Shown piece by piece: positions 3,701 through 41,000 of a stretch of DNA of 64,000 nt. The position numbers and the translations under genes are program-made. The stretch spans positions 854,526-918,525 of the forward strand of contig NW_014577070.1 of assembly GCF_000485595.1 (NCBI RefSeq), written 5' to 3'. How positions within the stretch are numbered: the stretch's first letter is position 1; every line of letters starts with the position of its first letter. The stretch comes from Priapulus caudatus (Eukaryota). The notes under the pieces were generated by a model that saw only the letters and a program-made list of their open reading frames with translations, made no database searches and was not told the origin of the DNA.

Positions 3701-6700
3701 GAAGGAAGAGATCAGGCGGAAGATCATTGTTGTTGAAATTGTTGAGGAAGTGACTCCAGAAGGGATTGATAGAGTTGAGATCACCAGAGTTGTGAAAAAG
3801 AAAAGGAAGACGCCTAAGAATACCGCAAAGGTTTGTGGTAGATGGTTAAACATAGCTGCGCCACGAAATGTATTACACATTGGGCCTGGGCCTGAGTTGC
3901 AGAACGTTTTGCATTGATTTAAAAGTCCTCTTCCACATACTCTGTTTCTTCATAGGTAGCTCCATGTATAGGGATAATTTTTGTTTGCTCTTAAAATTAA
4001 ATGTGAGTGTACATATTTGTCACTTTCAGAAGTCCCAGTTGAGGAGGTGGAAGAGGTACCAGAAGAGGAGGCTCCTGGGAGATCACACTGCGTTGTTCAA
4101 CTGGAAGAGAGAAGCTAGAAGGTAATCACTAAGTTCGTTATTGTGAATATGGTAACTCAAGAATACTAATTTAATCAAGAAACAAGTTTCAAAGTGCTGG
4201 CAGAGGTTATTGTACACAGGTGTCTTCAGACATGTATATGGCTTAGATATTCTGCTGAGTTGCATTAGTGATGGAGTGTTTTTACATTCATGCTTGATGT
4301 AGCTTGATGTTACTGAGTATCTGAATGCTCATCCACATGTCTGAAGTGAGATCGTCCACATGACTGAAACTATGTTTCCTTAATTCAGAATGAGTAGTTG
4401 AGTCGAAAGGTTACTCAAAATAGAGGTCGTAAAAAGAAGAAGCCCAAAGATCTCAGCTGAAGAAGAAATACAACTAGAGACTGGTTCAAACCTGTCAAAA
4501 GTGGATAGGACTGTTGAAGAAGAGTTTGTAACACAAAGAGGTTATTGAGCTCAAGCCGAGAAGAAATCACGAGGAAATAGTTGTTGAAATAGTGTGAAGA
4601 CGAGACTCCAGCAAGGACTTGAAGAGCGTTGACGATCAACGAGGGTTGTCGAAGAAGAAGACCAAGAAACAAGAGCCTAAGGTTCTGAAATTCCTGTTGG
4701 AGGAAGTTGTGGAATGCCAGTTGAAGAAGCTCCTTAAGAGGTCACTATTCGATCTCGTGAAAGATCACCAAAGAGGCAGTATGAAGGTAGCACGATGCAG
4801 GGCCACTAGTATCCCTGCCAGGTTATTCCGCCACGCCGACAATATATATAACATGAGTAAACTCCATTCCTTATTGTACAGCTCACCTTGTATAATTATT
4901 AGAACAATATTATGATAAGTGACATTAAATGTATTTGTAATCTCAAATCAAATGCAGAGTTTTAATTGTATTAAATGTTGGACTAGTAATTGTGTTTATC
5001 TGTCAACTTAATATAAGTAAGATACGCTTTGGTAGTAATGTTTGCACATATTGTGCTGTTGAAGTTTATTGCGGCAGGTACTTCTGACAGTGTAAGTGCT
5101 TCGATATTTCTCTCAAGTTGCTTAGCATGAATGTATAAGAATGCATGGCTGGATGTGGCGTGACGTTGCTTGTATCTTGAACTGCATACATGATGTCTGA
5201 AGTGTGATGTCCACTGACTGAAAACATGTTTCTGTAATTCATGAAGTGATAGGTTTGAATCGGAAAGTTAAAAAAGAGGCGGTAAAAAGAAGAACGCTCC
5301 AAAGATCTCGCTGAGAAGAAATACAACTAGAGCATGGTTCAACTTGGAAGAAGTAGAATGAGAACTGTCGAAGAAGAGTTCGTCACTCCAAGAGATTATT
5401 GAGGCTCAAGCCAGAGGAGAGAAATCACTAGGAAATAGTCCGTTGAAATAGTTGAAGCACGAGACTCTCAGAAGGAAATTGAAAGGTTGAGATCACGAGG
5501 TGTCAAGGAAGAAGACAAGAAGACAAAGAAGGCCTAAGGGTGTAGATTCCTGTGTGATAAGAAGTTGTGGAAGTGCCGGTGAAGAAAACTGCCCTGAGGA
5601 GGTCATTCTTGAGAATTGTAGAAGAGGTTCCTGAGAGGAAGCGAGAGTACCGAAGTCGCATTAAGCCAGGCTTACTAACAGTTTTGAAACCCTTTTTCCA
5701 CACATTCTTGCATGGCAATTGTTAGTAGTAGTCATATCAAGTGTCTCAGATGAAATGCTATAAACTTTGTATTTTATACCTGATAATCTTTGTCGCTTCT
5801 GAAGAAATTGAAGAATTTAACAATGTTGCATCAGTCTGCAAGCAGTCCTAGTTGGATCAGCTAAGAAGCATTCGCAGTGCCTCATAGTTTTGAAATTATT
5901 AATATAGTTTTTGCATTTAAATCTTTCGAATTTTGTTTTAATTTTTGCATAACAATGTGGAATTATACTAAAATTGTCATCTTTTTTTGCAAAAGCGATT
6001 TTGGTTATCATAGGACATTTTCGTACCAAAACGTGTCAGTGCAACTAGAGACGGATTGCTCATTTTTCGCTGAATGTTATAAGCAATTGCTGACCTGATC
6101 CAGGGATTGTTTTATTATTAGGTTATTGAAAAGAAAGAAGCAGAAAAAGCCAAAGAAACCTGAATGGGTTTGTGGCAGATGTTGATACATACTGCCACAT
6201 TATGTTATTGAACATTCTCGATGTGTATATGTATTTACCTATTGTAATGAGGTTCGTATATTTTTACTAACGGTGTGTTGGTATATAAGGCAATTATTTC
6301 ATGAGTCATTTCAGGAGGCATGTATTGTCCATAGCTCATACTTATTCTCAATGTCTTCTATAGAAGTCCCGTTGAGAGAGGTGAAGAAGGCACCAGAGGA
6401 GGAGGCTCCTGAGGAGGATCACACTTGAGGTTGTTCAGACTGAAGAAGAGCACCAGAAAGTAATCAGTCACTTAGTTGGTTCCTGGCCTTAATGAGGGGC
6501 GTAGAATCTTTTCATTGCAGCTGATTGAATTGTTTTAATAGGCAATTGTTTCAAAACGTCATTTTGAAAAGAGACATCTTTAGAGCGCAGCCATCATTGT
6601 AACAGTATTTCATGGCATGCACATAGCATGAGATGATGCANGAGACTCCAGAAGGAATTGAAGAGGTTGAGATCACGAGGGTTGTCAAGAAGAAGACCAA

Positions 6701-9700
6701 GAAGACAAAGAAGCCTAAGGTTGAAATTCCTGTTGAGGAAGTTGTGGAAATGCCAGTTGAAGAAGCTCCTGAAGAGGTCACTATTGATCTCGTGGAAGAG
6801 ATCACCAAAGAGGCAGTTGAAGGTAGCACGATGCAGGCCACTAGTATCCCTGCCATTATTCCACGCCACAACTAATATAACATGATAAACTCCATTCCTT
6901 ATTGTACAGGCTCACTGTGTATAATTATGTAGAACAATATTATGATAAGTGACATTAAATTGTATTTTGTATCTCAAATCAAATGAGAGTTTAATGTATT
7001 AAATGTTGGAAGTAATTGTGTTATACTGTCAACTTAATATAAGTACAGATACGCTTTGTATATGTTTGCACATATGTGCTGTTGAAGTTATTGCACAGGT
7101 ACTTCAGACATGTATATGCTTAGATATTCTGCTCAAGTTGCATTAGCAATGAATGTATATGAATTCATGCTGATGTGGCTTGACGTTGCTGGTATCTGAA
7201 GCTCATACATGTGTCTGAAGTGTGATCTGTCCACTGACTGAAACATGTTTCTTAATTCAGAAGTGATAGTCGAATCGAAAGTTACTAAAAAGAGGCGTAA
7301 AAAGAAGAAGCCCAAAGATCTCACTGAAGAAGAAATACAACTAGAGATGGTTCAACTTGTGGAAGAAGTAGAAGAGACTGTCGAAGAAGAGTTCGTCACT
7401 CAAGAGATTATTGAGCTCAAGCCAGAGGAAGAAATCACTGAGGAAATAGTCATTGAAATAGTTGAAGAAGAGACTCCAGAAGGAATTGAAGAGGTGGAGA
7501 TTACGAGGGTTGTCAAGAAGAAAGGCAAGAAGAAGAAGCCTAAAGTTGAAATCCCTGTTGAGGAATTTGTGGAAATGCCAGTTGAAGAAGCTCCTGAAGA
7601 GGTCACTATTGATGTCGTGGAAGAGATCACCGAAGAGGCAGTCGAAGGTAGCACGATGCAGGCCACTAGTATATCTGCCATTATTCCACGCCGCAGCAAA
7701 TATAACATAATACACCCCATTCCTTATTGTAATGGCTCACTGTGTATATGTAGGGAAATATTATGAGAAATGACATTAAATTGTTAATTTAGTATCTCAA
7801 ATCAAATGAGAGTATACTGTTTTAAATGTTGGGAGTAATTATGTTATACGTCAACTTCATTTAAATGCAGATACGCTATGTATTTATATATTTAAATGAT
7901 GCCGCCGTGTGGTGTGGAATATTAGCTCACTATTATGGGAGTTTTGTCATTTATTACTGAAATTGTTTCAATGCTTACTTTATCACCAGTCAATGAAAAG
8001 AAGAATAAAAGGAAAAAGGCAAATGTTGATACATAATGCCACACGATGTATTAACATTCTTGCCATGTAAAACAGTAGCCATGAAAACGAAAGTTTCAGT
8101 GCAGTGCAATTTTGTGCTGCCATGTTTTAACTATATTCGTAGATGGTTTGCACCCGTCTCATTATAATTGCTATCTACTCAGTGCACGCATATTCATTTA
8201 TCTTTTTCAGAAATCCCCGTCGAGGAGGTGGAAGAGGTTCCTGAAGAGGAGATTCCTGAGGAGATCACACTTGAGGTTGTTCAACTGGAAGAAGAGATAC
8301 CTGAAGGTAATTTATTGGTAGCTCCCACTCATGCTAACTATAAACTATGAACCTTCACAGAGAGAAACATATTTCAGTGCTGTTGAAGTTATTGCACAGG
8401 TACTTCAGACATGTATGCTTAGTATTCTGCTCAAGTTGCATTAGCAATGAATGTATATGAATTCATGCTGATGTGGCTTGACGTTGCTGGTATCTGAAGC
8501 TCATCCATGTGTCTGAAGTGTGATCTGTCCACTGACTGAAACATGTTTCTTAATTCAGAAGTGATAGTTGAGTCGAAGGTTATAAAGGGACGTAAAAAGA
8601 GAGCCAAAGATATCACGGAAGAAGAAATACAAACTAGAGATCGTTCAACCTGTCGAAGAAGTGGAAAGAGACTGTCGAAGAAGAATTTTTCACTCAAAGA
8701 GGTTATTGAGCTTAAGCGGAGGAAAATCACGCGGAAATAGTCGTTGAAATAGTTGAAGAGAGGACTCCAGAAGGAATTGAAGAGGTGGAGATCACGAGGG
8801 TTGTTAAGAAGAAAGGCAAGAAGAAGAAGAAGCCTAAAGTTGAAATCCCTGTTGAGGAAGTTGTGGAAATGCCAGTTGAGGAAGCTCCTGAAGAGGTCAC
8901 TATTGATGTCGTGGAAGAGATCACCGAAGAGGCAGTCGAAGGTAGCACGATGCAGGCCACTGGTATCTCTGTCATTATTCCACGCCACAGCAAATATAAC
9001 ATAATAAACTCCATTCCTTATTGTAATGGCTCACTGTGTATATGTAGGGAAATATTATGATAAATGACATTAAATTGTAAATTTAGTATCTCAAATCAAA
9101 TGAGAGTTTAATGTGTTAAATGTTGGTAATTATCTTATACGTCAACTTAATACAAGTGCAGATACCCTTTGTATTTAAATATTTAAATGATGCCTCCGTG
9201 TGGTTGTGGAATATTAGCTCACTATTATGGGAGTTTTGTAAGTTATTACTGACATGCTTCAATGCTTATTTTATCGTCAGTCACTGAAAAGAAGAAGAAA
9301 AAGAAAAAGCCAAAGAAACCTGAAGGTTTGTGGCAAATGTTGATACATAATGCCACACCATGTATTAACATTCCGGCCATGTAAAATTGTAGCCATGAAA
9401 AAGAAAGTTTCAGAACAGTGCAATTTTGTGCTGCCATGTTTTAACTATATTCGTAGATGGTTTGCAACCGTCTCATTATAATTGCCATCTACTCAGTGCA
9501 CGCATATTCATTTATCTTCTTCAGAAATCCCCGTCGAGGAGGTGGAAGAGGTTCCTGAAGAGGAGATTCCTGAGGAGATCACACTTGAGATTGTTCAACT
9601 GGAAGAAGAGATACCTGAAGGTAATTTATCGCTAGTTCCCATTCATGCTAACTATACCTAGGAACCTTTCACAGAGAGAAACATATTCCAGTGCTGTTGA

Positions 9701-12700
9701 AGTTATTGCACAGGTACTTCAGACATGTATATGCTTAGATATTCTGCTCAAGTTGCATTAGTAATGAATGTTTTTGAATTCATGCTTATGTGGCTTGACG
9801 TTGCTGGTATCTGAAGCTCATACATGTGTCTGAAGTGTGATCTGTCCACTGACTGAAACATGTTTCTTAATTCAGAAGTGATAGTTGAGTCGAAGGTTAC
9901 TAAAAGGAGACGTAAAAAGAAGAAGCCCAAAGATCTCACCGAAGAAGAAATACAACTAGAGATCGTTCAACCTGTCGAAGAAGTGGAGGAGACTATTGAA
10001 GAAGAGTTCGTCACTCAAGAGATTATTGAGCTCAAGCCAGAGGAAGAAATCACTGAGGAAATAGTTGTTGAAATAGTTGAAGAAGAGACTCCAGAAGGAA
10101 TTGAAGAGGTGGAGATCACGAGGGTTGTCAAGAAGAAAGGCAAGAAAAAGAAGAAGCCTAAAGTTGAAATCCCTGTTGAGGAAGTTGTGGAAACGCTAGT
10201 TGAGGAAGCTCCTGAACAGGTCACTATTGATATCGTGGAAGAGATCACCGAAGAGGCAGTCGAAGGTAGCACGATGCAGGCCACTATTCAGCACTCTTAT
10301 TGTTATTTTTATTTCGTCTACTGTTATTCCAGACTAAAGAAAATAGAACATAATAATGCCATATTATGTCAAACGTTATTGATTCTTAATTGATATCGCA
10401 TACTTCCACATAATCGCATGGTTATATTTGAATCCAAATATCTGTCCCTCCTCTTTTCATTTGAATAACGTTTGTAAGATCCAGGCGATGAAGTGTCTGA
10501 AGATGTTACTCTTGAATTTGTATAAGCAGTAACAGAAAATGCTATATTAAATGAGATTACACTTCATCGCTTCCTAATTGATATTGCATACCTGGTTATA
10601 ATTACATCTAAATATCTCTCTCTCTCTCTTTTATTTGAAGAACGTTTGGAACTTCCAGACCAGGAAGTGTTTGAGGATGTTACTCTTGAGATTGTACTTT
10701 TAACAGATTGTTTATGTTAATTTCAGTAACAGAAGATGTGGTTGAAATTACTGAGAAGAAAAAGAAGAAGAAAAAGAAGGAGAGAGGTTAGTAATTTAAT
10801 GCTGAATATATATATCTGTAAAAGCCTTTTTCGTTCTAATGTTTTAATTAAGTTCCACAGATGTCATATTTTCTAAGTTTGACTAGAATGTAGCAAAGGT
10901 AATAAGAGAACATTCAGTATATCATACACAATGCCTGCACTGATTTGTATAGATATTTAAAACATTTTACTTTTCTTTTTGACAGCTCCTAAAGTGCCAG
11001 AAGAGGTAAGCATCTTTTTTGACTAGTGTAAAGGTAATTGTGGAAGCATTTTTATTTATGCAATGAGATTGTCTGTGTAGTAGGATTATCTTCTGTAGGA
11101 TATAATGTATAGTAATATTGTGTTATATTTACATGAACTCTGAGGTTTTAAGTGAGGGCAGTTAGATTTCACATTTTCACAATTTCTTTCTAGGTTGTAT
11201 CTCCTGAGGCACCTGCTTTGACTCCTATGCCTGATTTGACACTCGTCGAAGGTGAAGTGGCTTGCTTCACAACATTTGTAAGTTATTATGTTAGTCATGT
11301 AATATGGAATAGTGCCCTATTGTGGAAATTGCATCCAAGTAAATAAACATCATGTTAGCTGGTAGGAGTATTCACGTGTACCCTGTTGAATATGTACAAA
11401 AACTAGTATTGAATAATAATCATCATTTGAGCGGTCATATAATTCACTTATGCTGCTAATAATAACAACATGCTCTGTAAGCTGATGATCATAAGATGCA
11501 CGTAGTCATGGGTAAGATTCTGGCCAATTTTGGTCATAATAGTGAGTTGTATGGAGAGGCTATACAGAACAAGTGTTTTCTGTGATCTGATATCACATAG
11601 CTTAGCAGCAGAAACCAACAGACAGTACAGCACAGTGTTGTACATTAGAGCTATGTGATAAAGATTCAAGCATATTCCTGGACAATCATTTCTCACAGGA
11701 AGGAAGCACTTTTCCTGCAATACTCTCTAACCGTTTTCTTTCTGGAGTAGTGGTATACTGGGAGGTGACACTATTATGGGATACTGAGGTGTAGCGTCTA
11801 GCGTGACACTACACAAGTGTGAGGGGGAAAGGTAGGAGAATAACCACGGGAGTAAATAACCAAAGGAGAAGAGCAAAAGTAGAGGGTACGATGTAGCTTT
11901 ATTGACTCGTAACGCCGAACGTCGATTCACACTGGCACGTGACTTCTCTCGGACTCTGTCTTGGGGTTCTGCCGTGAGCGCAGAAACCGTATTTTTACTT
12001 CCTTCATCGGCCTTGACACTTCGCGCGCTCACCGTCTGTTTCTTTGTTTTTCTGGCTGGATGTTACCGCATCCGTTGTGCATAAGACATTATGTATGGTG
12101 TCCTGCATACAATGGCCTAATATTGGTCGCTACATGTGATTGTATATTGAAAGGGGAACCAGCAGCATCTTTCTGTGAACATTAAGTCGAGCTATTCAAA
12201 CTAATGTAATCTGTATGTTTTTTTTTATTTGCCATAGGTTACTGGCTATCCGATTCCAACAATCACCTGGGGTGTTGAACATGTAGAACTCACAGACTCT
12301 CCCGACTTTGAAATAACTTTTGAAGACAACGTGGCAGAACTGGTGATCACCCACGTCTACACAGATGACCAGGGCTCCTATTGGTGTAGAGCAGAAAATG
12401 AATATGGAGAAGACTCAGTTGCTGCCATGCTATTCGTGCCAAGTACGTAGCACAATTCTGTTGTGTATTCAGTGTATTTAAAAAACCGTTTGAACAAATC
12501 TCAATTCATCCTTAATCTTGATTAGGCCAAAGTTGATAGCCACGAAATCAAGAATTCACTGAAAACTTAAAAAGCCTTGTAGATTACGTGAACAAATTAT
12601 TTGTCTAAGTGAATGTGTGCGTGGGCATGTACATCTGTGTTCTATTAAATTGTCAATGTGGGTCTCGTTTTTATGGTGGATACAGTCCATTAAAGGTGAG

Positions 12701-15700: not shown

Positions 15701-18700
15701 TTGCAAGGCATCAGGCACAGATATTAGGGGAAAGAGTATTTATTATACAGAATATGTAACGTATATGCAGGGATGTCCACGTATGCCTTTGATTTCATGC
15801 AGTCGTAAAAGCAAAAAAATCAGTACTTAGTAATCAAAAGTATTAGTTATTTTCATGACAAACTTAGGGCAATCTTTTCGTTGCAACGTGTGTTGCAACA
15901 TGCTCACATGAATTGCATCAATAAAGGTTGGGATGCGTAGGACAGTTATAAAAGGCAATGGAAATATATCAATTTAAATAGATAAGCAGTGTAAAATTAG
16001 GATATAAACAACAGTTTATATTTATATGATTACCAACACAAACAATTGATAGTAAAGTGGCTGAATTGCTGAGTGGAACCAAGGTAAACGATTTATAGTT
16101 TCCAATGAGCCACGATAATACTCATTAGGGATGTAAGATTGAAGGTAGGTGCAACTGAAACATTTGTGCATGCCCGCAGTCGTAAATAATACTCTTTAGC
16201 AACTGGTTCATTAGTCAGCCATGATGTCTCATTGGAGCATTGTCACTGTGCATGACATGCAAGGTGACAATTACATGAGACATGTCTGGCAGCTATGAAC
16301 TTGGAAGTAATTGCTCAAAGAGTGTTCTATTTACAGAAATAGAAANAAGGCTACTATGTCCTTTACTGGTAAAATTTTACAGGTCGGGGGATGTTTTGCC
16401 AGAGTATATATCAACTTGTCAATTGCTTTTTACTACTACAATTTGCATTTCGGTATAGTTGTCACTTCATCCCATTGATGAACTGGCTGGAAACCAGTAT
16501 ATCCACCGAGTTTCTAACAATACGCTTGCAGAACCAGAGAAGCTGTTGCCAATTTAAATAGATCGGCAGTTCAAAATTAAAAAAAATAATTGAACGTATT
16601 CATCATGGGAAATATGATAAGACATAATTAAGCAAAACAAATTACAGCTAGTACTAGTTGATTAGGAGAGTTGCCCCAGTGGTAAGGGAGTTAAATTTTC
16701 CAATAGAAAAATATAAGTCTCTTCTGCCCCCACTGCAACATTGGCACAGTAGCGTATAAATGAAATGTTCGCCTCCTGCGCCGCAGTTGTAGATAAACTC
16801 CTTAGCAACTTGGTTCAGTAGCCCTGGCCATGATATCTGCATTGGAGTGTTGTCACTGCTGCATGAATGCACAGGTGACAATTAGATGGATATGTCTTGC
16901 AAGCCTCATGACATGGGAAGTGATTGCTCAAAAGAGTGTTGCTATTTACAGAAGCCAGAAATCACACGTGTAGAAAAGAAGAAAAAGAGAGAAGAAACGA
17001 CAGCCAGGTACAAGAAGTTGTAGAAGGAACTTCCTCAACCCGAGGAAACACTGAAGAGCGTGGTTCTTGGGCAGGTTAAACCAGTTGAAGAGCGTACCAG
17101 AAGACGTCCTGAAGTGACTGAAGAAATAACTAAGAAATCATAATAAGTAACAGAAGAGGCAAACAGCTTCCTGAGGTCACTGCAGGAAGTCACTGAGGAA
17201 TATCATCTCTGAACAAACAGTAAGAAGAGAAAACAGCTTCCAGAAGCGTACATATGTCCTTACTGTAAATTTTACAGGCGTTGGGAGTGTTTGTAGAGCT
17301 GATTATCACATGGCAAGGTTATTTAATACTACAATTTGCATTTGGCTATTCAGTTGTCACTATTCCGCATTGATGAACATGGCTGAAACATGTATAATTC
17401 ACCGAAGTTTCTAAAAACAGCTATAAGAACACAGAGAGCTTGTTGCAATTTAAATTAGATCGCGCAGCTTCAAAAATGAAAAAATAATGAACGTATTATC
17501 ATGGACATGCATTACTTTAAGGCAAACAAATTAGCTATACTATTGCAGTGCGACAGAGTTGCCAGTCTGTAGAGAGAGGTTAATATTTGTCCAACTGAAA
17601 CAATATAAGGTCTATTCTGCCACTGCAACATTGACGGTTATGGTATAAATGAAAATGTCTCGCTCATGCGCACGCGTTGCTAAGATAGTATACTCCTTTA
17701 CAGCAAAACTGGTTCATTAGCCTGCCATGATGTCTCATTTGGATGTTGGTCACTGTGCATGACACTGCAACCGGTTACAATTAGCATAAGATATGCTCTG
17801 GCAGTATGAACATGGAAGTGATTGCTCAAAGAATGTTCTATTTTACAGTAGCAAAGAATTCACACCTGTAGAAAAGTCAAGAAAAAGAGATGAAACCGAA
17901 GCCAGTAGAAGAACTTGCCTCACACCTGAGGAAACCACTTGAAAGAATTGTATGTTCTTGAGGTAAGCCAGTCGAAGAGCGCACCAGAAGGAGGTTCCTG
18001 AAGTGACTGAAGAAGACCATAACTGAAGAAAATTGTAATAGTAACAGAAGAGGAAACAGTTTACTGATGACGACGTATCACTGAGGAAGTAACTGCAACC
18101 AAATCATCTTTGAACAACCAACCGTTCAAGGAGCCGAACAACAGGTTCTGAAGTAGAATATGTCCTTACAGAAAAACATACGCATGCACTAGAATATTCT
18201 GAAATATATTATGCACATGAAAGAGCTCTTCACTACACGCTATGTGCAGCTGAGATATAATGTTTCACCTCTACTGCGCTGAATTGCCAAGTGTATATAT
18301 CAGGCATCATTAGAATAGGATAAAAACGAGGGAGCTTTATACAATTTAACTCGCTGTCGCGAAGTTTAACTGAGCATATAATAAACGGTTTAGTCTTACA
18401 CACAATCCTATTAATACCAAATAAATGAAACTCGAACTGACCGCTGTCAGCGCAGTGCTTGGCCCAAAGGTAAAATAACTACATTGTTTCAATTCAGCCT
18501 ATATAAGACTTCTTTAGTCAGTATGATCTGAAAGGCTATAGCAGTAGTGGAAACATTTCGTCCATTTGCCCTGCAGTCGATAAATAATACTCTTTAAAGC
18601 TGCCTGTTCATTAGTCTGCCATAATGTGCTCTCATTGGAGTCGTTGTCACTGTGCATGACATCAGGGCGGCTGACAATAGACATGAGATATGCTCTGCAG

Positions 18701-21700
18701 CTATGAACATGAAGTTGATTGCCTCAAAGGAGGTGTTCTATGTTACAGAAGCAGAAGATCACACGTGATAGCAAAAGAAGAAAAAGCAAGAGAAAACCCG
18801 AAAGCAGTAGAAAAGTTGGTAGAGAACTTCCTCAACCGAGGAAACTACCTGAAGAGTGCTGGTTCTTGAGGTTAAACCAGTTGAAGAGTAGCCGAGTCAG
18901 AGGTTCCTGAAGCGACTGAAGAAATAACTGGAAGGAAATCGCTAATCAATAACAGAAGAGGAAACAGTTCCTGCAGGCACTGAGGAACAGTCACTGAGGA
19001 AATCATCTGGAAACAACGAGTAGAAGCAGGAACAGGTTCAAGAAGGTAAACAATGTCCATTACTGTATGATTTTACAGCGTCGGGGATGTTTTTGTAGAG
19101 TATTATATACATGGAATTGTTTTTACACTACAATTTGCATGTTGGTATAGTTGTCACTTTCCAGTTGCATTTGAAACTGGGCTGAAACAGTATAAATTCA
19201 CAAGTTCCTAAAACAGCTATAGAACAGAGAGCTGTGTGCCAAATTAAATAGATCGGCAGTTCAAAATGATAAAAATAATGAACGTATTCAGTATGGACAT
19301 GATTTATTAAGGGCAAACAAATGATAAGCTATACTAGTGAGCTAGCGAGAGTTGCTCCAGCTCAGTGAAGAGAGGTAAATTTCCAATGAAACGAATATAA
19401 GTCTCTTCTGCCAGCTTGCACCGTCAACTGTTTGATGCGGTAGGGTATAAATGAAAGCGCTCCTGCCGGCAGTTGTAGATAAATACTCTTATAGCAACTG
19501 TGTTCATTAGGCCTGCCCATGCATGTCTCATTGCAGTGTTGTTAATGTGCATGACATGCCAAGCCGTGCACAATTAGCATGACGATTATGTCTGGCAGCT
19601 ATGAACATGGAAAGTGATTAGCCTCAAAGACGTGTTCTATTTACAGTAGCAGAAATCACACCTGCTTTAGAAAAGAAGAAAAAGCAAGAAGAAACCGAGC
19701 AGTAGAAGACTTCCTCAACCTGAGGAAATCACTTGAAGATGTTGTCTTGAGTGTTAAGCCAGTCGAAAGACCGGCTACCAGAAAGAGGTCCTGTAGTGAA
19801 CGAAAAATAACTGCAAGAAATGTAATAGTAACCAAAGAGGAAAACGTTACTTGGAGGTACTGCAGGCAAGTAACTGCAGCAAATTCATCTTTGACAACCA
19901 CATAGAGGAGGAACAGGCTTCCGTGAAGGTAGGAAATGTCCTAACTGAAAATTATTACATGACTGGTAATCTGAAATACATTATAACATGGAAAGAGCTT
20001 TCACTAACATGATGTGCAGCTGATACAATTTTCACCTTATTACTGCGGCTGAATTGCCAACGTGTATATATCAGGATCATAGAATAGCGTATAAAACGAG
20101 GGAGCTTTATCAATTTAACTCGTTCGCGACAGCTTTTAAAACTGAGCGACTATAAATACGTGTTTATTCTTTCACAATTATTAATACAAATTAAATATGG
20201 AAACTGAACTGACCGTGTAGGAGTGTTGCCCAAAGGTAAATAATAGCCAGTTTCCAAATCAGCCTATATAAGACTCTTTAGTGATTCGTAGGATTGAAGG
20301 TAGTAGGTATAGCCTGCGAAACATTGTGTCCATGGCCCTGCCAGTCATACAATAATTACTCTTTAGACAGCTGGTTCATTATTTCTTGCGCATGATTAGG
20401 TCTCATGTGGAGTGGTTGATCACGTGTGCATGAACATGCAAGGTGTACAATTACATGAAGACATTTCTGGCAGCTATGAACAGTTGGAAGCCGACTTGCC
20501 TCAAAGAGTGTATCTATTTACAGAAAGAGAAATGTACACCGCCTGTTGGAAAAAGAAGAAAAAGAAGAAGAAACGAAGCCAGTACAGGAAGTCTGTAGGA
20601 AGAACTTCCAGCACCAGAGGAAACCACTGAAGGGTTCCTTTTGAGCTTAAACCAGTTGAAGAGGTACCGAAGAGGTCCTGAACGTGACTGAAGAAATAAC
20701 TGAAGGAATCATAATAATAACAGAAGAGCGAAACAGTCTCCGAGGTGCACTGAGGAACGTCACTGAGGAAATCATCTTTTGCAACAACCAGTAGAAGAGG
20801 AACAGGTTCCAGAAGGCTACATTATGCTCCTTTACTGCCTAAAATTTTACAGCGTTGGGATGCTTTTGTAGAGTATTATCACATCGGCCAAGTGTTTTTA
20901 CCCCTACAATTTGCATTTTGGTATTAGTTGTCACTTTCCCTGAGGAACGGCTGAAACAGTATAGATTCACGAGGCTTCTAAAAACAAGCTAGGGAAGAAC
21001 CAGAGAGCTGTTGCAATTTAAATAGATCGGCAGTTTCAAAAAATGAAAAAATAATGAACGTATTCATATGAATATGATTATTAAGGCAAACAAATTAAGC
21101 TATACTAGTTGAGTAGGAGAGTTGCCCCAGTGTAAGGGAGTTAAATTTTCCAATGAAACAATATAAGTCTCTTCTGCACTGCAACATTGACGGTAGGTAT
21201 AAATGAAATGTTTGCTCCTGCGGCAGTTGTAGATAATACTCTTTAGCAACTGGTTCATTAGCCTGCCATGATGCCTCATTGGAGTGTTGTCACTGTGCAT
21301 GACATGCAAGGTGACAATTACATGAGACATTTCTGGCAGCTATGAACGTGGAAGTGATTGCTCAAAGAGTGTTCTATTTACAGTAGCAGAAATCACACGT
21401 GTAGAAAAGAAGAAAAAGAAGAAGAAACCGAAGCCAGTAGTAGAAGTTGTAGAAGAACTTTCTCAACCTGAGGAAACCACTGAAGATGTTGTTCTTGAGG
21501 TTAAGCCAGTCAAAGAGATACCAGAAGAGGTTCTTGAAGTGACTGAAGAAATAACCGAAGAAATTGTAATAGTAACAGAAGAGGAAACAGTTACTGAGGT
21601 TACTGAGGAAGTAACTGAGCAAATCATCTTCGAACAACCAATAGAAGAGGAACAGTTTCCTGAAGGTAGAAATGTCCTTACAGAAAAACATTACATATGA

Positions 21701-24700
21701 CTAGTATTCTGAAATATATTTTGACATGGAAAGAACTTTCACTAACGCTATGTGCAGCTGATATAATTTTCACCTTTACTGCACTGAATTGCAAGTGTAT
21801 ATATCAGGATTCATAGTATAGGTATAAAAACGAGGGAGCTTTATAAATTTAACTTGTTCGGAAGTTTAAACTGAGGATATAATAAACATGTTTATCTTTA
21901 CACAATTATTAATACAAATAAATAAAATTGAACTGACCGTGTAGGAGTGTTGCCCGAACGTAAGATAATAGCAGTTTCCAATCAGCCTATATAAGACTCT
22001 TTAGTGATGTAGGATTGAAGGTAGGTATAGCTGGAACATTTGTCCATGCCCTGCAGTCATAAATAATACTCTTTAGAAGCTGGTTCATTAGTCTGCCATG
22101 ATGTCTCATTGGAGTGTTGTCACTGTGCATGACATGCAAGGTGACAATTACATGAGACATGTCTGTCAGCTATGAACGTGGAAGTGATTGCTCAAAGAGT
22201 GTTCTATTTACAGAAGCAGAAATCACACCTGTAGAAAAGAAGAAAAAGAAGAAGAAACCGAAGCCAGTAGAAGAAGTTGTAGAAGAACTTCCTCAACCCG
22301 AGGAAACCACTGAAGAGGTGGTTCTTGAGGTTAAACCAGTTGAAGAGGTACCAGAAGAGGTTCCTGAAGTGACTGAAGAAATAACTGAAGAAATCGTAAT
22401 AATAACAGAAGAGGAAACAGTTCCTGAGGTCACTGAGGAAGTCACTGAGGAAATCATCTTTGAACAACCAGTAGAAGAGGAACAGGTTCCAGAAGGTACA
22501 TATGTCCTTACTGTGCAATTTTACAGCGTCTGTGTGTTTTGCAGAGTATTATCACATGGCAATTGTTTTTACTACTACAATTTGCATTTGGTATAGTTGT
22601 CACTTTCCCATTGATGAACTGGCTGAGACAGTATAATTCACGAGTTCTAAAACAGCTATAAGAACCAGAGAACTGTTGCAATTTAAATAGATCAGCAGTT
22701 CAAAATGAGAAAATAATGAACGTGTTCATATGGATATCATTATTAAGACAAACAAATACTATACTAGTTTAGTGGGAGAGTTGCTCCATGGTAAGGGAGT
22801 TAAATTTTCCAATGAGACAATATAAGTCTTCTGCACTGCAACATTGACGGTAGGTATAAATGAAATGTTCGCTCCTGCGGCAGTCGTAAATTATACACTT
22901 TAGCAGCTGGTTCATTAGTCTGCCATGATGTCTCATTGGAGCGTTGTCACTGTGCATGACATGCAAGGTGACAATTACATGAGACATTTCTGGCAGCTAT
23001 GAACGTGGAAGTGATTGCTCAAAGAGTGTTCTATTTACAGAAATAGAAATCACACCTGTAGAAAAGAAGAAAAAGAAGAAGAAACCGAAGCCAGTAGAAG
23101 AAGTTGTAGAAGAACTTCCTCAACCTGAAGAAACCACTGAAGAGGTTGTTCTTGAAGTTAAACCAGTTGAAGAGGTTCCCGAAGTGACTGAAGAAATAAC
23201 TGAAGAAATTGTAATAGTAACAGAAGAGGAAGTAGTTACTGAGGTCACTGAGGAAGTAACTGAGGAAATCATCTTCGAACAACCAGTAGAAGAGGAACAG
23301 GTTCCAGAAGGTAGATGTTTCCTTACTGAAAAATATTACATGACTGGTAATCTGAAATATATTATGACATGGAAAGAGCTTTCACTAACACGATGTGCAG
23401 GTGATATAATTTTCACTGTTACTGCACTGAATTGCAAGTGTATATTTTACGATTCATAGAACAGGTATAAAAAGCAAGGGAGCTTTATCAATTTAACTGG
23501 ATCAGCAGTTTAAAATGAGGATATAATAAACGTGTTTATATTTACACAATTGTTAATATAAACAAATGAAACTCAACTGACCGTGTAGGAGTGTTGCCCC
23601 AATGTAAGATAAGAGCAGTTTCCAATGAGCATATATAAGACTCATTAGTGGCGTAGGATTGAAGGTAGGTATTACTGGAACATTTGTGCATGTTCTGCAG
23701 TAGTAAATAATACTCTTTAGCAGCTGGTTCATTAGTCTGCCATGATGTCTCATTGGAGTGTTGTCACTGTGCATGACATGCAAGCTGACAATTATATGAG
23801 ACATATCTGGCAGGTATGAACTTGGAAGTGATTGCTCAAAGAGTGTTCTATTTACAGAAATAGAAATCACACCTGTAGAAAAGAAGAAAAAGAAGAAGAA
23901 ACCGAAGCCAGTAGAAGAAGTTGTAGAAGAACTTCCTCAACCTGAGGAAACCACTGAAGAGGTGGTTCTTGAGGTTAAACCAGTTGAAGAGGTACCAGAA
24001 GAGGTTCCTGAAGTGACTGAAGAAATAACTGAAGAAATCGTAATAATAACAGAAGAGGAAACAGTTCGTGAGGTCACTGAGGAAGTCACTGAGGAAATCA
24101 TCTTTGAACAACCAGTAGAAGAGGAACAGGTTCCAGAAGGTACATATGTCCTTACTGTGAAATTTTACAGCGTCTGGGTGTTTTGCAGAGTATTATCACA
24201 TGGCAAATTTTTTTACTACTATTTGCATTTGGTGACAACTTTCCCATTGATGAACTGGCTGAAACAGTATAATTCACGAGTTCTAAAACAGCTATAAGAA
24301 CCAGAGAACTGTTGCAATTTAAATAGATCAGCAGTTCAAAATGAAAAAATAACGAACGTGTTCATATGGATATCATTATTAAGACAAACAAATACTATAC
24401 TAGTTTAGTGGGAGAGTTGCTCCATGGTAAGGGAGTTAAATTTTCCAATGAGACAATTTAAGTCTTCTGCACTGCAACATTGACGGTAGGTATAAATGAA
24501 ATGTTCGCTCCTGCGGCAGTCGTAAATAATACTCTTTAGCAGCTGGTTCATTAGTCTGCCATGATGTCTCATTGGAGCGTTGTCACTGTGCATGACATGC
24601 AAGGTGACAATTAATTACATGAGACATGTCTGGCAGCTATGAACATGGAAGTGCTTGCTCAAAGAGTGTTCTATTTACAGAAATAGAAATCACACGTGTA

Positions 24701-27700
24701 GAAAAGAAGAAAAAGAAGAAGAAACCGAAGCCAGTAGCAGAAGTTGTAGAAGAACTTCCTCAACCCGAGGAAACCACTGAAGAGGTTGTTCTTGAAGTTA
24801 AACCAGTTGAAGAGGTTCCCGAAGTGACTGAAGAGTTAACTGAAGAAATTGTAATAGTAACAGAAGAGGAAGTAGTTACTGAGGTCACTGAGGAAGTAAC
24901 TGGGGAAATCATCTTCGAACACCCAGTAGAAGAGGAACAGGTTCCAGAAGGTAGATGTCTTAACCTGAAATTAATACAACATTATAATTGTCAAAAATGT
25001 CTTTCTGGTAAGGTGCAATTCACTTATAGGATATAAATCCACTTTATATGTCATATTCATTGTGGTGCTATACAACTACACATTTTAAGAGTCATAGGAC
25101 ACATCTAAAAACAAAATGGAGATATGTGGTTCAAATTTGTAACTAAATTGAAATTAAAAGCGCATATCATCTTAGTACTATGCTTACTACAAAAACCACT
25201 TAGTGCACCTAAGCAATCAGAATAAGACAAATGTATGATGGTAAGTGAAATTATTTGTTCAATAAATTGCTACGTTGGGATATTTGCAATATACCATTGA
25301 TGGTAAGTATTTGTGAACGTTTCTTCATGCCTGAGTCAGAAATAGTGCTCCATAGCTGCTTGTTCATGAGTCTGTCATTACGTCTCATCAGAACATTGTC
25401 TCAATTCAAAATGTTTAGTGAGACAATGTGATAAGACGTGTCTAACAGCTATGAACTTACTAACTACTTACTGCTAAATAATACTCTTTAGCAGCTGGTT
25501 CATTAGTCAGCCATGATGTCTCATCGGAGCATTGTCACTGTGCATGACATGCAAGCTGACAATTACATGAGACATCTCTGGCAGCTATGAACTTGGAAGT
25601 GGTTGCTCATAGAGTGTTCTATTTACAGAAATAGAAATCAAACCCGTAGAAAAGAAGAAAAAGAAGAAGAAACCGAAGCCAGTAGAAGAAGTTGTAGAAG
25701 AACTTCCTCAACCTGAGGAAACCACTGAAGAGGTGGTTATTGAGGTTAAACCAGTCGAAGAGGTACCAGAAGAGGTTCTTGAAGTGACTGAAGAGATAAC
25801 TGAGGATGTCTTAATAGTAACAGAAGAAGAAGCCGTTGCTGAGGTTATTGAGGAAGTAACTGAGGAAATCATCTTCGAACAGCCTGTCGAAGAGGAACAG
25901 GTTCCAGAAGGTAAAGATTTTCCTATTGGAAATTATCACAACGTTGTGATTATACAAAATCTAACAACTGGTGCGCCTATAGTAATCATGAACTACCTTT
26001 ATTGCTAGGATCTTAGCCTGGCTTAGTTGTAATTACCATGGCTGGGGAAATCTAGTTCTGTTTTTTTTCGATTCATAGAACATCTGTTAATATTACCATG
26101 GAGATATCTCACTTGAATATGTCAGTAACGTAAAATAGAATCTTCATGATTGTGTTCTACAAAAACTGATAAGTGCATCTAAACCAACAGAATAAGACAA
26201 ATGTATAAAGGTAAATCAATAAAGCTCTTCAATAAGTTACTATGATGAAGCATTTGCAATACATCATTGATGGTAAGTATTTGTCAACACATTTTTCATG
26301 TCGAGCACAGGAAATAGTGCTCTGTAGCTGCTGGTTTATTAGTCTGCCATTACGTCTCATCAAAAGATTGTCTCAATATATAATGTTTAGTGAGACAATG
26401 TGATAAGACGTGTCTGGCAGCTATGAACTTAGAAGTGGTTGCTCAAAGGGCGTTCTATTTTCAGAAGTAGAAATTGCACACGTAGAAAAGAAGAAAAAGA
26501 AGAAGAAACCAAAGCCAGCTGAGGAAACCACTGAAGAGGTTGTTCTTAAGGTTAAACCAGTTGAAGAGGTTCCTGAAGTGACTGAAGAGATAACTGAAGA
26601 AATCGTAATAGTTGCAGAAGAGGAAACTGTCCCTGAGGTTATTGAGGAAGTGACTGAGGAAATCATCTTCGAACAACCGGTAGAAGAGGAACAGGTTCCT
26701 GAAGGTATATATGTCCTCACAGCATTATTACAACACTCGTCGTATTGAGTGTTTTTGCTGACATTATGATGAGCTTATTTATTTATGACTTTGCCTGTCG
26801 GTGATATAACCACAAACACAGATAAGTGTACACAATCCACGCAGGCAGGAGAGTTATGTAAAGGTACGTGGATAAACGTCTCTTAATTATACATTACTCA
26901 TAATGTTTCTTTGTATTACCAAATTTGAGAGCTCTTTTTAATACATTGTTATGTTGAAAATGTATGAGGAATTTATAGTCAGATTGTATGTTAATATAAC
27001 TTACTATAAAGAACTGTGAATATTATCACAATTATATTAACCGTGCATAGTTGCACGATGATGAGTGTAAGCATATCAGCTGCGTGATAATACAATTAAA
27101 TATTATTTAATTATGAAGGAGCCATTATTCTTGCTATTATTTTTTTACTTAGAAATATGGTATGGTTGTATTATATGAAACGGTTGTGTTGTTATATTTT
27201 TGAATGTGACTCTGCTTGTGATATATCTAATATTCATGTGATTTGCTGTAGAAGAAAAGCCAAAGCAGACTGGTATGTCACCATATTTCACCCAGTTCCC
27301 CAGGGAGGTTGAGGCATACAATGGTAAGTGTATATGTCAGATTATTTAACAGTCAGATATTATTATTATTCGTGTGTAGGAAAATGTATATGATTTTATA
27401 ACTATGTATGTTTTGCCATTCATGAAATAATTATATTTACAGTTTTTATTCACACATGACACATTTTTAAATGAAACTTGGTACTGCTTAGTAGGCCTAC
27501 TGCTTGGTAGCTATCTGCAAGTACACAACCTCTTTTTCTATTTCTCTCATCACCTTGGACTATATTATCTACACTTACAGTGTTGAAGTAGAAGAAAAAT
27601 GTAATTATGCTGTTAATTTTTCAGGTTATCCAACTGTTATTGAATGGAAATGCAAAGGTGTCCCTCATCCAGATGTCCAGTGGATCAAGGGTAAACTGCT

Positions 27701-38021: not shown

Positions 38022-41000
38022 GGAAGCTATTAGATATATGAAAAAAGATCAGAAGCTATTCTTATTGTTAAATGAACTAGAGTGGAAATAATTATTATTG
38101 ACCTGAAATGTATCGCCTTTATATCAATAGTTCTTGTGAGCGTCTGCACGTCTTACGCTTACTACTTTACTTAGCCAAAATTTAGTTATGGTAACACTGC
38201 TTGTCAACATCAACTACATAACATGCTCATGGATAATGCTTACGCAATCAGTGTCTCAATTTTAACTAACTCTTATTTTGTTTTGTTTTAAAGGTTTTTT
38301 TTGTATTAATTTTTATTTTAACAATTCACGCTGTTTGTTGTGTATTTCGTTTTTCATACCATATTCTCTAAGAGAAATACTAACAGGTAATCCCAGTGCA
38401 GAATATTTTGCTTGTTATATACATGATACGGAACATGTATACAGATATATTACTTACGTTTTGCTTACACAGTCTGTTGGTAACATTAGGTAATTTAATA
38501 TAACATTCACAATCGCATGTATAATTTATGCATTACTCTATTAACATATACACTCGGCTTGCTTGAAAGTACTGTTAGAGATGATCAATACTGTAGATGG
38601 AGGAACTAATCACTGCCTAAAACCTACTGCTGAAATAGGAGCACGTGTTGATGTCCTTACTAAAACGCGAATGAGCTCATGCTTCTAATGCAATACTGCT
38701 AAAGCTACTCACAAAACTTAATGTATAGGATGGAGGAACTAACTACTGCCTAGAAACCTACTGCTAAATAGGAGCACTGGTTGATGACCTTACTAAAACG
38801 TGAGATGAGCCTCATGCTTCTAATAGAATACTACTAAACCTACTGCCACGCGAACTAAAAGCGATGTTGTTTCAATACAGTCGCCGAGAGATCACGGTTG
38901 AAGCTATTACAGCCGGCTGAGGTTGGATTAGAAGTACATATGATGGCGAGGTAAGGAGGTCGACGTGCAAATAGAAGCTATTGCGCCCACAGAAGTGAGC
39001 CTTGACCTCGAACAGGAGCAGGAAATCAAGCAAGTGGAGTTGGAAATTCAACCAGTATCACCTTCCGTGCCTGCGCTTGATATTCCCACAGAAGAAACCA
39101 AGGAAGTGGAGATGCAGCGTTCAACCAGGCGTCCTGTAGAGGTTTCTGTTGATGTGACTACAGAAGAAACTAAGGAAGTGGAGATGCAAGTTCAACCAGG
39201 CGTTCCTGTAGAGGTTTCCATTGACATGGCTACAGAAGAAACTAAAAAGTCGAGAATGGCAAGTTCAACCAGGTCCCTGTAGAGGTTTCTGTGATGTGAC
39301 TACAGAAGAAACTAAGGAAGTGGAGATGCAAGTTCAACCAGGCGTTCCTACAGAAGTTTCCGTTGATGTTACACAGAGGAAACGCAAGGAAGCAGAGATG
39401 GTAATTCAACACATGTCCCTGGTGAGGTCGGCTTAGAAATCCAGTAGAGACAACGGTGGAAGATGTTACGATGGATGTACCAAAGCCAGAACCGACTGAA
39501 GAATCTGACTGTTGATCTTCCAACTGATATTGAAGTTGTTGGAAATGGCCGAGGAGGATGTTGTAATGGAGGTTGCAGACGTTCCTGCAGTATCACCTGA
39601 TACAGCGAAGAAGAAGTCATGGCGTAGATATTTCGCTCAACAACAGAAGAGGTTACTGAAGTATCCAGAAGAAATGGCCAGCACAATCGTTCTTCCAACC
39701 AAGCCAGAGGAAGTTTCCGCAAGAACTCGCAGATGCCACTGAAGCAGTTGAAGTCATTGTTAAAACAAAAGATGAAATCCGGGAAGAGAATTGAGGAGGT
39801 GTCTGAGGAACTCGTTATTACTCCAAAAACCAATAACGTCGTTGAGGAAATGTGCTGAGGAGGTTACCTTTAAGCCAATGACACAGGAAGAGGGAACAGG
39901 TATGTCATTTTGTTGTACCATCTGCGATATTCTTTTCTACTTGTGATAGGCAACAAATAATGCTTTTGAATTGGTAAGATTCATGTGATTATTGGCTATT
40001 ACTATTGTGATATGTCCAACTGGGTTCATTGGTAGTTTTATATTGTGACGAGGTTAATTAATTCTGTTTTTTAAACTCAATTGGAAAAGTGGTAGATATA
40101 TACTTCACACATGTGCCTCCTTCTGCATGATCAGTGGCAATTTAAAACCTGCAATTTTGCTATAGCAAAATTCAACATAACAGCTGGCTGCATCAAACGC
40201 CTATGGATTTCCCATGTTTAATTAATTAAGTGTATGAGTGTTATGTTATGTTGATTTTCTAATTCATGGCCAGATCAGGTGCTAACCTTATATAGGTATT
40301 TGCTTTGGCACAAATGCTATGTGTTAAAACACGGGTAATGTTAAATAACCGTACTGAACTATGATTGACATTCGCAACCATTTGCATTAACATTATTCTT
40401 CCTGCAATGAACTGAACAGGTAATCCTCCAACTAAGCTAATAACCGACAGGCTTCTAACAAAGACTAAAATAGTCAATTAATTCCATGTGCTTTTAACTA
40501 TTCACTTAACATCTTGATTTTATAAAATGGTTATATACATAACTTACACAACAATGCATGATGCACATCACATTATATTTTTTAAAGAGAATGACCAAGT
40601 TTAATGACTTACAACTTAACCATGTTGCTGAGGCATGGGTTGGAGACGTATTGCGACACGAAAAGTACCGCAACTAACGCATACTAATTTATATAATGCT
40701 AATTGTCGCATCAAGCTGAATGGATGTTATTTCAATACAGTCCCGGAGGAGATCACGTTGAAGGCTGTTACCCCGCCTGAGGTTGGACTAGAGGTACCAT
40801 ATGATGGGGAGGTAAAGGAGGTCGACGTGCAAATGAAGCATTGCGCCCATAGAAGTGAGCCTTGACCTCGAACAGGCAGCAGGAAATCAAGCAAGTGGAG
40901 TTGGAAATTCAACCAGTATCACCTTCCGTGGCTTACGCTTGATATTTCCACAGAAGAAACCAAGGAAGTGGAGATGGCAGGTTCAACCAGGCGTCCCTGT

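What the first reader, a model, noticed from the sequence alone, without database searches (positions are those of the whole stretch)
21230..26464. Each array B exon carries a covarying ~153-nt intronic hairpin that pairs its own 3' splice site and has TGCATG at its apex
Seen: upstream of the clean B exons (e.g. 23703-23855, 24522-24678) nested arms pair, from the outside in: gtaaata/tatttac (the acceptor tract just before AG), tactcttt/aaagagtg, gttca/tgaac, ctgcca/tggcag, atgtctcat/atgagacat, ttgtcac/gtgacaa and tgcat-gac-atgca. The 60-nt core of the diverged copy (26352-26411) aligns without gaps, and the copy (26310-26462) shows double compensatory changes: aTgtct/agacAt to aCgtct/agacGt, ttgtcAc/gTgacaa to ttgtcTc/gAgacaa, tActct/agagTg to tGctct/agggCg, and gTaaata/tatttAc to gGaaata/tatttTc. 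Its apex loses TGCATG. Established: UGCAUG is the RBFOX motif, and RNA stems that occlude splice sites can repress exons. Inference: the duplicated unit is exon plus structural splicing switch, so a whole PEVK array could be toggled together to tune spring length. An alternative is a tandem cluster of intronic miRNA/5'-tailed-mirtron-like hairpins. I know of no such system described for titin, but cannot search.
Basis: partly seen in the sequence, partly recalled or inferred. Interest (0 to 1): 0.88.

Follow-up and report, generated by a model that had tools for sequence, protein, structure and literature searches.

The report
Hairpins guarding titin-like repeat exons
In an invertebrate titin-like muscle gene, each copy of a repeated spring exon is preceded by the same conserved, compensated 153-base intron sequence, predicted to fold into a hairpin that likely helps the exon get spliced in rather than switching the array off, though it could instead be a small-RNA precursor.

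Summary
The hairpin is real. All 8 clean array-B acceptors carry it (z -3.9 to -6.7; 29 control acceptors -2.6 to +1.5). It is 92-97% identical between copies whose flanking introns have drifted to near-random identity. The diverged copy keeps 6 pairs by double change against 1.6 expected (p=0.002), and G-U pairs favour the sense strand. It is not a dispersed MITE and has no Rfam family.

The repression reading is weaker. The AG is predicted unpaired in 6 of 8 copies. RNA-seq shows B exons spliced to each other at about 43-77 per single-copy exon.

New features: the acceptors lack a normal branch point and hide 10-12 AGs in the stem. A strong donor-like motif and a cryptic CAG sit just upstream. 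Array A carries an unrelated hairpin in a similar place.

Best reading (0.40): a cis-acting, acceptor-assisting fold. Main rival (0.30): a long-hairpin microRNA or 5'-tailed mirtron. No small-RNA or lariat data were available.

The parts
21229..21381 (+). B hairpin, standard type, ending 2 nt before the acceptor AG (21382-21383)
22059..22211 (+). B hairpin, standard type (weakest copy, z -2.7, -4.4)
22886..23038 (+). B hairpin, standard type
23703..23855 (+). B hairpin, standard type
24522..24678 (+). B hairpin, standard type with a 4-nt insertion in the 3' arm (also seen in runs X8 and X9)
25476..25626 (+). B hairpin, standard type, in a chimeric intron whose 5' part is of the diverged type
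25339..25459 (+). truncated diverged-type hairpin lacking the basal 3' arm, not next to an acceptor
25458..25464 (+). TACTAAC branch-point consensus (consensus recalled), A at -166 from the acceptor, about 12 nt 5' of the standard hairpin base
26310..26462 (+). diverged B hairpin (73-76% identical to the standard type), with compensatory changes and no apical TGCATG
16182..16334 (+). first clean B hairpin; its exon is cut by the N at 16346
16786..20526 (+). five degraded B hairpin copies (81-86% identity with indels) in an error-rich stretch, probably an uncorrected long read (inference); left out of all statistics
21384..21665 (+). B exon, 282 nt, phase 1-1, Lys run then Glu/Val/Pro/Thr-rich
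22214..22495 (+). B exon, 282 nt
23041..23310 (+). B exon, 270 nt
23858..24139 (+). B exon, 282 nt
24681..24950 (+). B exon, 270 nt
25629..25910 (+). B exon, 282 nt
26465..26704 (+). last, diverged B exon, 240 nt
23658..23700 (+). example of the upstream module: donor-like motif (GT at 23665) and, 36 nt on, a pyrimidine-rich run plus CAG at the hairpin base. Other copies have GT at 16145, 21193, 22021, 22850, 24486, 25303, 26273 and CAG ending at 16179, 21226, 22056, 22883, 24519, 25339, 26310
23770..23775 (+). example of apical TGCATG (also 16249, 21296, 22126, 22953, 24589, 25541)
23846..23865 (+). example of the competing 8-bp stem between the pyrimidine tract and the exon start, with the acceptor AG in its 4-nt loop
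7090..7230 (+). array A intronic hairpin, unrelated in sequence (other clean copies about 1975-2115, 8391-8528, 9705-9845)

Best explanation
Each B exon of this titin-like gene is duplicated together with a selected 153-nt intron sequence predicted to fold into a stem-loop, which likely acts in cis on its own acceptor and would hide the 10-12 internal AGs while leaving the true AG exposed, so helping the copies to be spliced in series. SHOWN: the sequence, its conservation above flanks and four-fold sites, the compensatory changes, the very short AG-free zone, the lack of a branch-point consensus in the last 60 nt, and co-inclusion of many B exons in mRNA. PREDICTED: the fold itself, a weak outer helix that competes with an 8-bp tract-exon stem, and local folding beating cross-unit pairing by 11 kcal/mol. 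INFERRED: that branching occurs 5' of the hairpin base; that U1 on the strong donor-like motif 34-38 nt upstream silences the cryptic CAG at the base (whose use would add 154-161 nt and an early stop); and that RBFOX at the apex tunes rather than toggles inclusion.
For: The nearest upstream AG is 16-18 nt from the acceptor in 8 of 8 B copies, but 24 nt or more in 16 of 17 other acceptors; 10-12 AGs lie inside the stem. A YTRAY word in the last 60 nt: 0 of 8 B copies, 12 of 17 others. The chimeric intron has TACTAAC about 12 nt before the hairpin base. The stem ends 2-3 nt before the intron end, and the AG is predicted free in 6 of 8. Identity jumps from about 0.5-0.7 to about 0.9-1.0 at the hairpin base between standard copies of different intron types, while it falls right after the donor. 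Every copy keeps the fold, as expected for a cis element rather than a redundant trans product (inference). Compensations occur in the basal, middle and apical helices alike. B-to-B junction reads: 37 and 47 at 23310, 22 and 46 at 24139 (agreement 0.92-0.97). B exon depth is about 68, 43 and 77 times single-copy exons. The donor-like motif occurs 8 times exactly, all 190-195 nt before B acceptors; 10 matches with one mismatch against 0.86 expected.
Against: Only 1 of 8 copies has a clear branch-point word just 5' of the stem. In the others a cryptic CAG lies between any upstream branch point and the stem and should compete. The fold makes the last 25-40 nt harder to open, which could equally inhibit. 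Array A has a similar hairpin but an ordinary acceptor (CTGAC at -24, AG-free zone 42 nt), so masking cannot explain both. Variable sites among the 7 standard copies are not clearly biased to unpaired positions (p=0.074). In run X9, 15 of 36 reads carry a pair-breaking change at 25519 with no partner change listed. The saddle-shaped divergence fits a microRNA precursor. All covariation rests on essentially one contrast between paralogues.
Confidence: 0.4

Rival explanations
1. The hairpins are intronic small-RNA precursors (long-hairpin microRNAs or 5'-tailed mirtrons) that were amplified with the exons, giving a tandem, muscle-expressed cluster; the apical TGCATG would let RBFOX regulate processing.
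For: Saddle profile: 22-nt windows over the apex differ at 8-12 sites between B and the diverged copy, the arms at 1-5; the best duplex differs at 3 of 44 (p=0.014 under a uniform null). The stem ends with a 2-nt AG overhang in most copies, and U-14/G-13 is present in 7 of 7 copies checked for one register. G-U pairs favour the sense strand in 11 of 13 hairpins. Array A has a near-perfect terminal duplex of about 21 bp whose changes mostly keep pairing. Long structured invertebrate precursors with a bulge at the dicing site exist (PMC12553114, results part 1 and section 14 read). Rbfox opens apical loops of pre-miRNAs (PMC4872098, abstract and passages).
Against: No Rfam family. The conserved-duplex signal falls to p=0.12 under a stricter null. 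The register with the basal UG differs from the diverged copy at 8+5 of 44 sites, so no single register has both motif and conserved seed. Pairing is also selected in the basal helix over the acceptor tract. Dozens of redundant copies would relax selection on a trans product (inference).
Confidence: 0.3
2. One reading: the stem occludes the acceptor and, with RBFOX, represses all B exons together, toggling spring length.
For: Higher opening energy at B acceptors (p=0.001 for 25 nt; copies not independent). TGCATG at 7 apices and strand-biased in the gene. Array A inclusion relative to single-copy exons varies 8, 22, 59 between runs, so array-level regulation may exist in this gene.
Against: B ratios vary less than twofold (68, 43, 77). 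B-B junctions are abundant, and no skip of the whole array appears among the 15 joints shown of 29. The AG is mostly predicted free, and the motif is lost in the diverged copy. In fly muscle the sls event tested did not depend on Rbfox1 (PMC8742874, passages).
Confidence: 0.1
3. A foldback/MITE relic or DNA quasi-palindrome inserted at the acceptor (CAG on both sides), kept uniform by gene conversion and templated repair, with no RNA function.
For: A CAG with a pyrimidine run flanks the 5' base and CAG ends the 3' side. Both strands fold well. The chimeric intron switches type exactly at the hairpin base.
Against: In run X9 the reads running off the 5' base form two groups of 19 (depth there about 40) that match B-intron flanks at 0.86 agreement, so close copies are not dispersed. 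G-U bias on the sense strand. Conservation exceeds four-fold exon sites and is one-sided relative to the exon.
Confidence: 0.1
4. The long imperfect duplex is a landing site for dsRNA-binding proteins (ADAR or Staufen type), for example for editing of cryptic AGs or the branch adenosine.
For: About 55-60 bp imperfect stems in two arrays. This is an inference from general knowledge.
Against: No A>G row inside a B hairpin among the 40 rows shown (61 hidden; intron depth very low, so weak).
Confidence: 0.07

Closest known systems
Stem-loops between branch point and acceptor that shorten the effective distance and hide cryptic AGs (yeast introns; recalled, not found)
   Same: AG-rich stretch folded away, terminal AG left free, no branch-point word near the AG
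   Different: Animal gene, about 60-bp stem, repeated with every exon of a tandem array, with an upstream donor-like motif; branch point not mapped
Structures sequestering the pyrimidine tract, e.g. F8 intron 15 (PMC11802352, passages of a review)
   Same: Fold over the tract at the 3' end of an intron
   Different: Here the exons are strongly included, and the fold is compensated and copied 13 or more times
Dscam1-type docking/selector structures and the one-arm duplication model (PMC6071210, abstract and passages)
   Same: Exon duplicated with adjacent intronic stem-loop sequence
   Different: Both arms are duplicated, so each exon has a private hairpin, and exons are co-included, not mutually exclusive: the complementary case to that model
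Giant invertebrate microRNA hairpins such as mir-989 (PMC12553114) and long 5'-tailed mirtrons (PMC4556696, passages)
   Same: Length, structured and faster-evolving apex, internal bulges, 3' end at the acceptor with an AG overhang
   Different: No known family, no register combining motif and conserved seed, no small-RNA evidence
Splice-site-overlapping microRNAs (PMC8465124, passages)
   Same: Hairpin overlapping acceptor signals, so processing and splicing could compete
   Different: The stem stops at the AG and does not extend into the exon
Vertebrate titin PEVK splicing (RBM20 repression, PMC3575840 search listing; PEVK evolution, PMC6469411 passages)
   Same: Tandem Glu/Val/Pro/Lys-rich exons between I-set Ig domains
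   Different: PMC6469411 has 0 occurrences of 'hairpin' or 'secondary structure'; orthology of this gene to titin is not established

Membership tests
Acceptor-bridging/AG-masking stem-loop | Cryptic AGs inside the stem, true AG outside | tested here: met
   10-12 AGs inside; AG paired at 0.07 or less in 6 of 8 (prediction)
Acceptor-bridging/AG-masking stem-loop | Branch point 5' of the stem | tested here: inconclusive
   Clear consensus word in 1 of 8; none in the last 60 nt in 8 of 8
Acceptor-bridging/AG-masking stem-loop | Stem disruption impairs and compensation restores splicing | not testable with these tools
   needs a minigene
Canonical or long-hairpin microRNA | Sense-strand hairpin with a 22-nt duplex and structured extension | tested here: met
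Canonical or long-hairpin microRNA | Member of a described family | tested here: not met
   Rfam best E=0.21 on the minus strand, far below gathering score; nothing at the A hairpins
Canonical or long-hairpin microRNA | Conserved seed in a register with Microprocessor motifs | tested here: inconclusive
   Basal UG in 7 of 7 for one register, but that register diverges; conserved duplex p=0.014 or 0.12; CNNC not tested by a call
Canonical or long-hairpin microRNA | Mature and star reads with 2-nt overhangs | not testable with these tools
   No run known to be small RNA was offered; X13 (kind unknown) laid nothing
5'-tailed mirtron | Hairpin 3' end at the acceptor with a short overhang | tested here: met
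   (prediction; the outer helix is weak)
5'-tailed mirtron | Small reads ending at the AG | not testable with these tools
   no data
Docking/selector mutually exclusive cluster | One exon of the cluster per mRNA | tested here: not met
   B-B junction reads, depth ratio 43-77
Docking/selector mutually exclusive cluster | One shared docking arm for many selectors | tested here: not met
   Each unit has both arms; local fold beats cross pairing by 11 kcal/mol
MITE | Dispersed copies with unrelated flanks | tested here: not met
   for copies at least 80% alike, in about 4% of one DNA run
MITE | Target-site duplication | tested here: inconclusive
   CAG on both sides, 0-4 nt off the stem base
snoRNA | Match to a snoRNA family | tested here: not met

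The most novel reading that the evidence does not exclude
Two neighbouring spring-exon arrays of one giant muscle gene have independently captured unrelated long hairpins and amplified them dozens of times as exon-plus-structure cassettes. Each B cassette is a complete splicing module (decoy donor, poison acceptor, AG-masking stem, RBFOX apex) that also releases a small RNA, so that spring length and small-RNA dose are set by the same copy number.
Probability: 0.15. Interest if true: 0.85.

Novelty: new variant of a known kind. Interest (0 to 1): 0.58.

Why it matters
How long arrays of near-identical exons are spliced in series without skipping or cryptic-site use is poorly understood. Here the duplicated unit includes a whole, compensated stem-loop and the exons are co-included, the counterpart of the one-arm duplication model for mutually exclusive exons. 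The natural variants (standard, diverged, truncated orphan, chimeric intron with a perfect branch point) give a ready-made minigene series. If the small-RNA rival holds, this is a large undescribed intronic cluster in a titin-like gene. My 10 paper searches (open-access library only) listed no report of such a cassette in a titin-like gene.

Tried and rejected
No whole genome is held, so no genome-wide search was possible.

The organism was not identified. Protein searches gave nothing or one 30%-identical obscurin-like hit, the representative search never ran, and a paper search with one guessed species name gave nothing relevant. Titin-likeness rests on I-set hits.

No RNA holder was on record in the run index; the RNA runs came by species label. 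X12 laid only 7 reads, and X7 and X13 laid none; these blanks are not evidence.

An 18-nt scan of metagenome contigs gave 7 loci, none extending beyond 21 nt: chance. Earlier scan findings: none. A and B hairpins show no homology (best E 0.36).

A coding micro-exon before the donor-like motif was considered by eye and dropped for lack of a common frame. Recursive splicing at that motif was dropped because only some copies have AG before the GT. Cross-unit slipped pairing is less stable.

DNA copy number from the Hi-C run is crude: depth about 40 at the hairpin base against 2-4 next door, falling along the hairpin. The script stopped with an error after printing the depth ratios; its accessibility part was rerun. 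The five noisy copies were dropped before all counts. Supplements of the papers, notably the long-hairpin tables of PMC12553114, were not looked at, and MirGeneDB/miRBase could not be searched; either may already list these hairpins.
Full report
Setting. The window is part of an animal gene with I-set Ig exons (best solved relatives are titin domains; I-set) and tandem arrays of Glu/Val/Pro/Lys-rich exons. The organism was not identified and no genome is held. Array B has seven complete clean exons of 240-282 nt, all multiples of 3, one more clean acceptor at 16336, and five degraded units in an error-rich stretch after the N at 16346, which were left out of all statistics. RNA runs confirm the gene model: GT-AG joints link the single-copy exons, the exon ending at 15578 continues into a B exon start, and B exon ends continue into B exon starts.

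The observation. Two copies fold at z -4.8 and -5.7 with 0 of 200 shuffles as stable. In a scan of 1580 windows of 150 nt, the top hits other than simple repeats were B hairpins and an unrelated family in array A. The last 160 nt of 8 of 8 B introns give z -3.9 to -6.7, against -2.3 to +1.5 for 17 other acceptors and -2.6 to +1.0 for 12 array-C acceptors.

Is it selected, and as RNA? Among the seven standard copies the hairpin is 92-97% identical. The 170 nt upstream are 52-72% identical between intron types (shuffled baseline 59%; 87-99% within a type), and four-fold exon sites 74-97%. Against the diverged copy the values are 73-76%, 53-60% and 54-70%. The step in identity coincides with the 5' base of the stem. 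With pairs defined from the standard copies only, the diverged copy keeps 6 of 56 pairs by double change (null 1.6, p=0.002) and breaks 5 (null 14.9, p about 5e-5). Without apex and edge it keeps 4 against 0.8 (p=0.005). One search gives 7 of 61 pairs with double change, 0 of 500 shuffles reaching it, and 0-1 for slid controls. G-U pairs are more numerous on the sense strand in 11 of 13 hairpins, with one tie and one reversal (the orphan copy). Against this: variable sites among standard copies are only weakly biased to unpaired columns (p=0.074), the paired/unpaired difference to the diverged copy is not significant (p=0.20), 15 of 36 reads of run X9 break one pair, and the covariation is essentially one paralogue contrast. 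Reads leaving the 5' base in X9 form two groups of 19 matching B-intron flanks, so the element is not dispersed. Rfam has no match.

Does it shut the acceptor? Opening the last 25 nt costs more than at other acceptors (9.1-15.2 against a median of 7.6 kcal/mol). But the outer helix is weak: with exon sequence present, the pyrimidine tract prefers an 8-bp stem with the exon start, and the AG is paired at 0.07 or less in 6 of 8 copies. In RNA, B-B junction reads number 37 and 47 at 23310 and 22 and 46 at 24139. B exon coverage is about 68, 43 and 77 times that of single-copy exons in X10, X11 and X5 (X5 is only guessed to be RNA). So dozens of copies are likely included together, far more than assembled; back-splicing cannot be separated from tandem inclusion with these reads. 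No whole-array skip is among the 15 joints shown of 29. The apical UGCAU is predicted paired and is lost in the diverged copies. Rbfox can, however, open such loops (PMC4872098, passages), and the motif is strand-biased in the rest of the gene (20 against 0). Repression as the default state is therefore not supported; tuning is possible.

(1) B acceptors are abnormal: an AG lies 16-18 nt upstream, 10-12 AGs lie in the stem, and 0 of 8 have a YTRAY word in the last 60 nt, against 12 of 17 other acceptors. (2) A donor-like motif, on average a closer match to the donor consensus than the real B donors (7-9 against 7-8 of 11), stands 190-195 nt upstream in all intron types including the diverged one (8 exact matches in the window, all there). 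It is followed 34-38 nt later by a pyrimidine run and CAG at the stem base. Use of either site would bring an early stop. (3) One intron is a chimera: a truncated diverged hairpin, then TACTAAC, then a standard hairpin starting at its base. (4) Array A has its own hairpin, unrelated in sequence, with an ordinary acceptor behind it.

Mechanism. I favour a cis-acting fold that folds away an AG-rich stretch and presents the true AG, with the upstream motif guarding the cryptic CAG (0.40). It explains the odd acceptor, the exact end of the stem, selection on every copy and co-inclusion, but the branch point is unmapped and array A needs another account. The main rival is a long-hairpin microRNA or 5'-tailed mirtron cluster (0.30): divergence is saddle-shaped (best duplex 3 differences in 44; p=0.014, or 0.12 under a stricter null), one register has the basal UG in 7 of 7 copies, and such precursors exist in invertebrates (PMC12553114). 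No register joins motif and conserved seed, and no small-RNA data were available. Slipped pairing between units is 11 kcal/mol worse than local folding.

Known systems and verdict. It works like acceptor-proximal stem-loops (yeast bridging stems, recalled; F8 intron 15 in PMC11802352) and is the both-arms counterpart of the one-arm duplication model for mutually exclusive exons (PMC6071210). It fails membership of docking/selector clusters and MITEs, and microRNA membership is untested on its defining feature. Ten searches of the open-access library listed no such cassette in a titin-like gene; supplements and microRNA databases were not seen. Verdict: a real, selected RNA element, a new variant of a known kind, function open between two testable models. 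Interest 0.58.

Noticed in passing
window 1975-2115, 7090-7230, 8391-8528, 9705-9845 (noisy copies near 4203 and 5047): Array A introns carry an unrelated hairpin of about 125-140 nt (z -6.1 to -8.1, 8-11 G-U pairs on the sense strand against 0-1). It has a pre-miRNA-like terminal duplex, and its base buries a CAG-GT junction resembling a recursive splice site.
   Followed up: partly
window 9400-10700: Array A coverage relative to single-copy exons differs between runs (8, 22, 59) while array B is steady; this may be regulated skipping, copy-number variation or mapping loss.
   Followed up: partly
window 1607-1670, 2997-3060, 9324-9390: After the short Lys-rich exon of array A, the donor is followed by two overlapping inverted repeats giving alternative stems over the donor.
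   Followed up: no
window 27000-64000: TGCATG occurs 20 times on the sense strand and 0 on the antisense (13 distinct contexts), often as two per intron in array C.
   Followed up: partly
window 32741-32930, 40141-40330, 48301-48490: Array C introns have a weaker mid-intron fold (z about -2 to -2.7) near one of the TGCATG sites.
   Followed up: no
window 16346-21000, 3500-6640 and parts of 32000-43000: Error-rich stretches with many indels next to N positions, probably raw long-read gap fill (inference). The arrays appear collapsed in the assembly.
   Followed up: partly
window 25241 and 25303: The chimeric intron has two donor-like motifs 62 nt apart upstream of the truncated hairpin.
   Followed up: no
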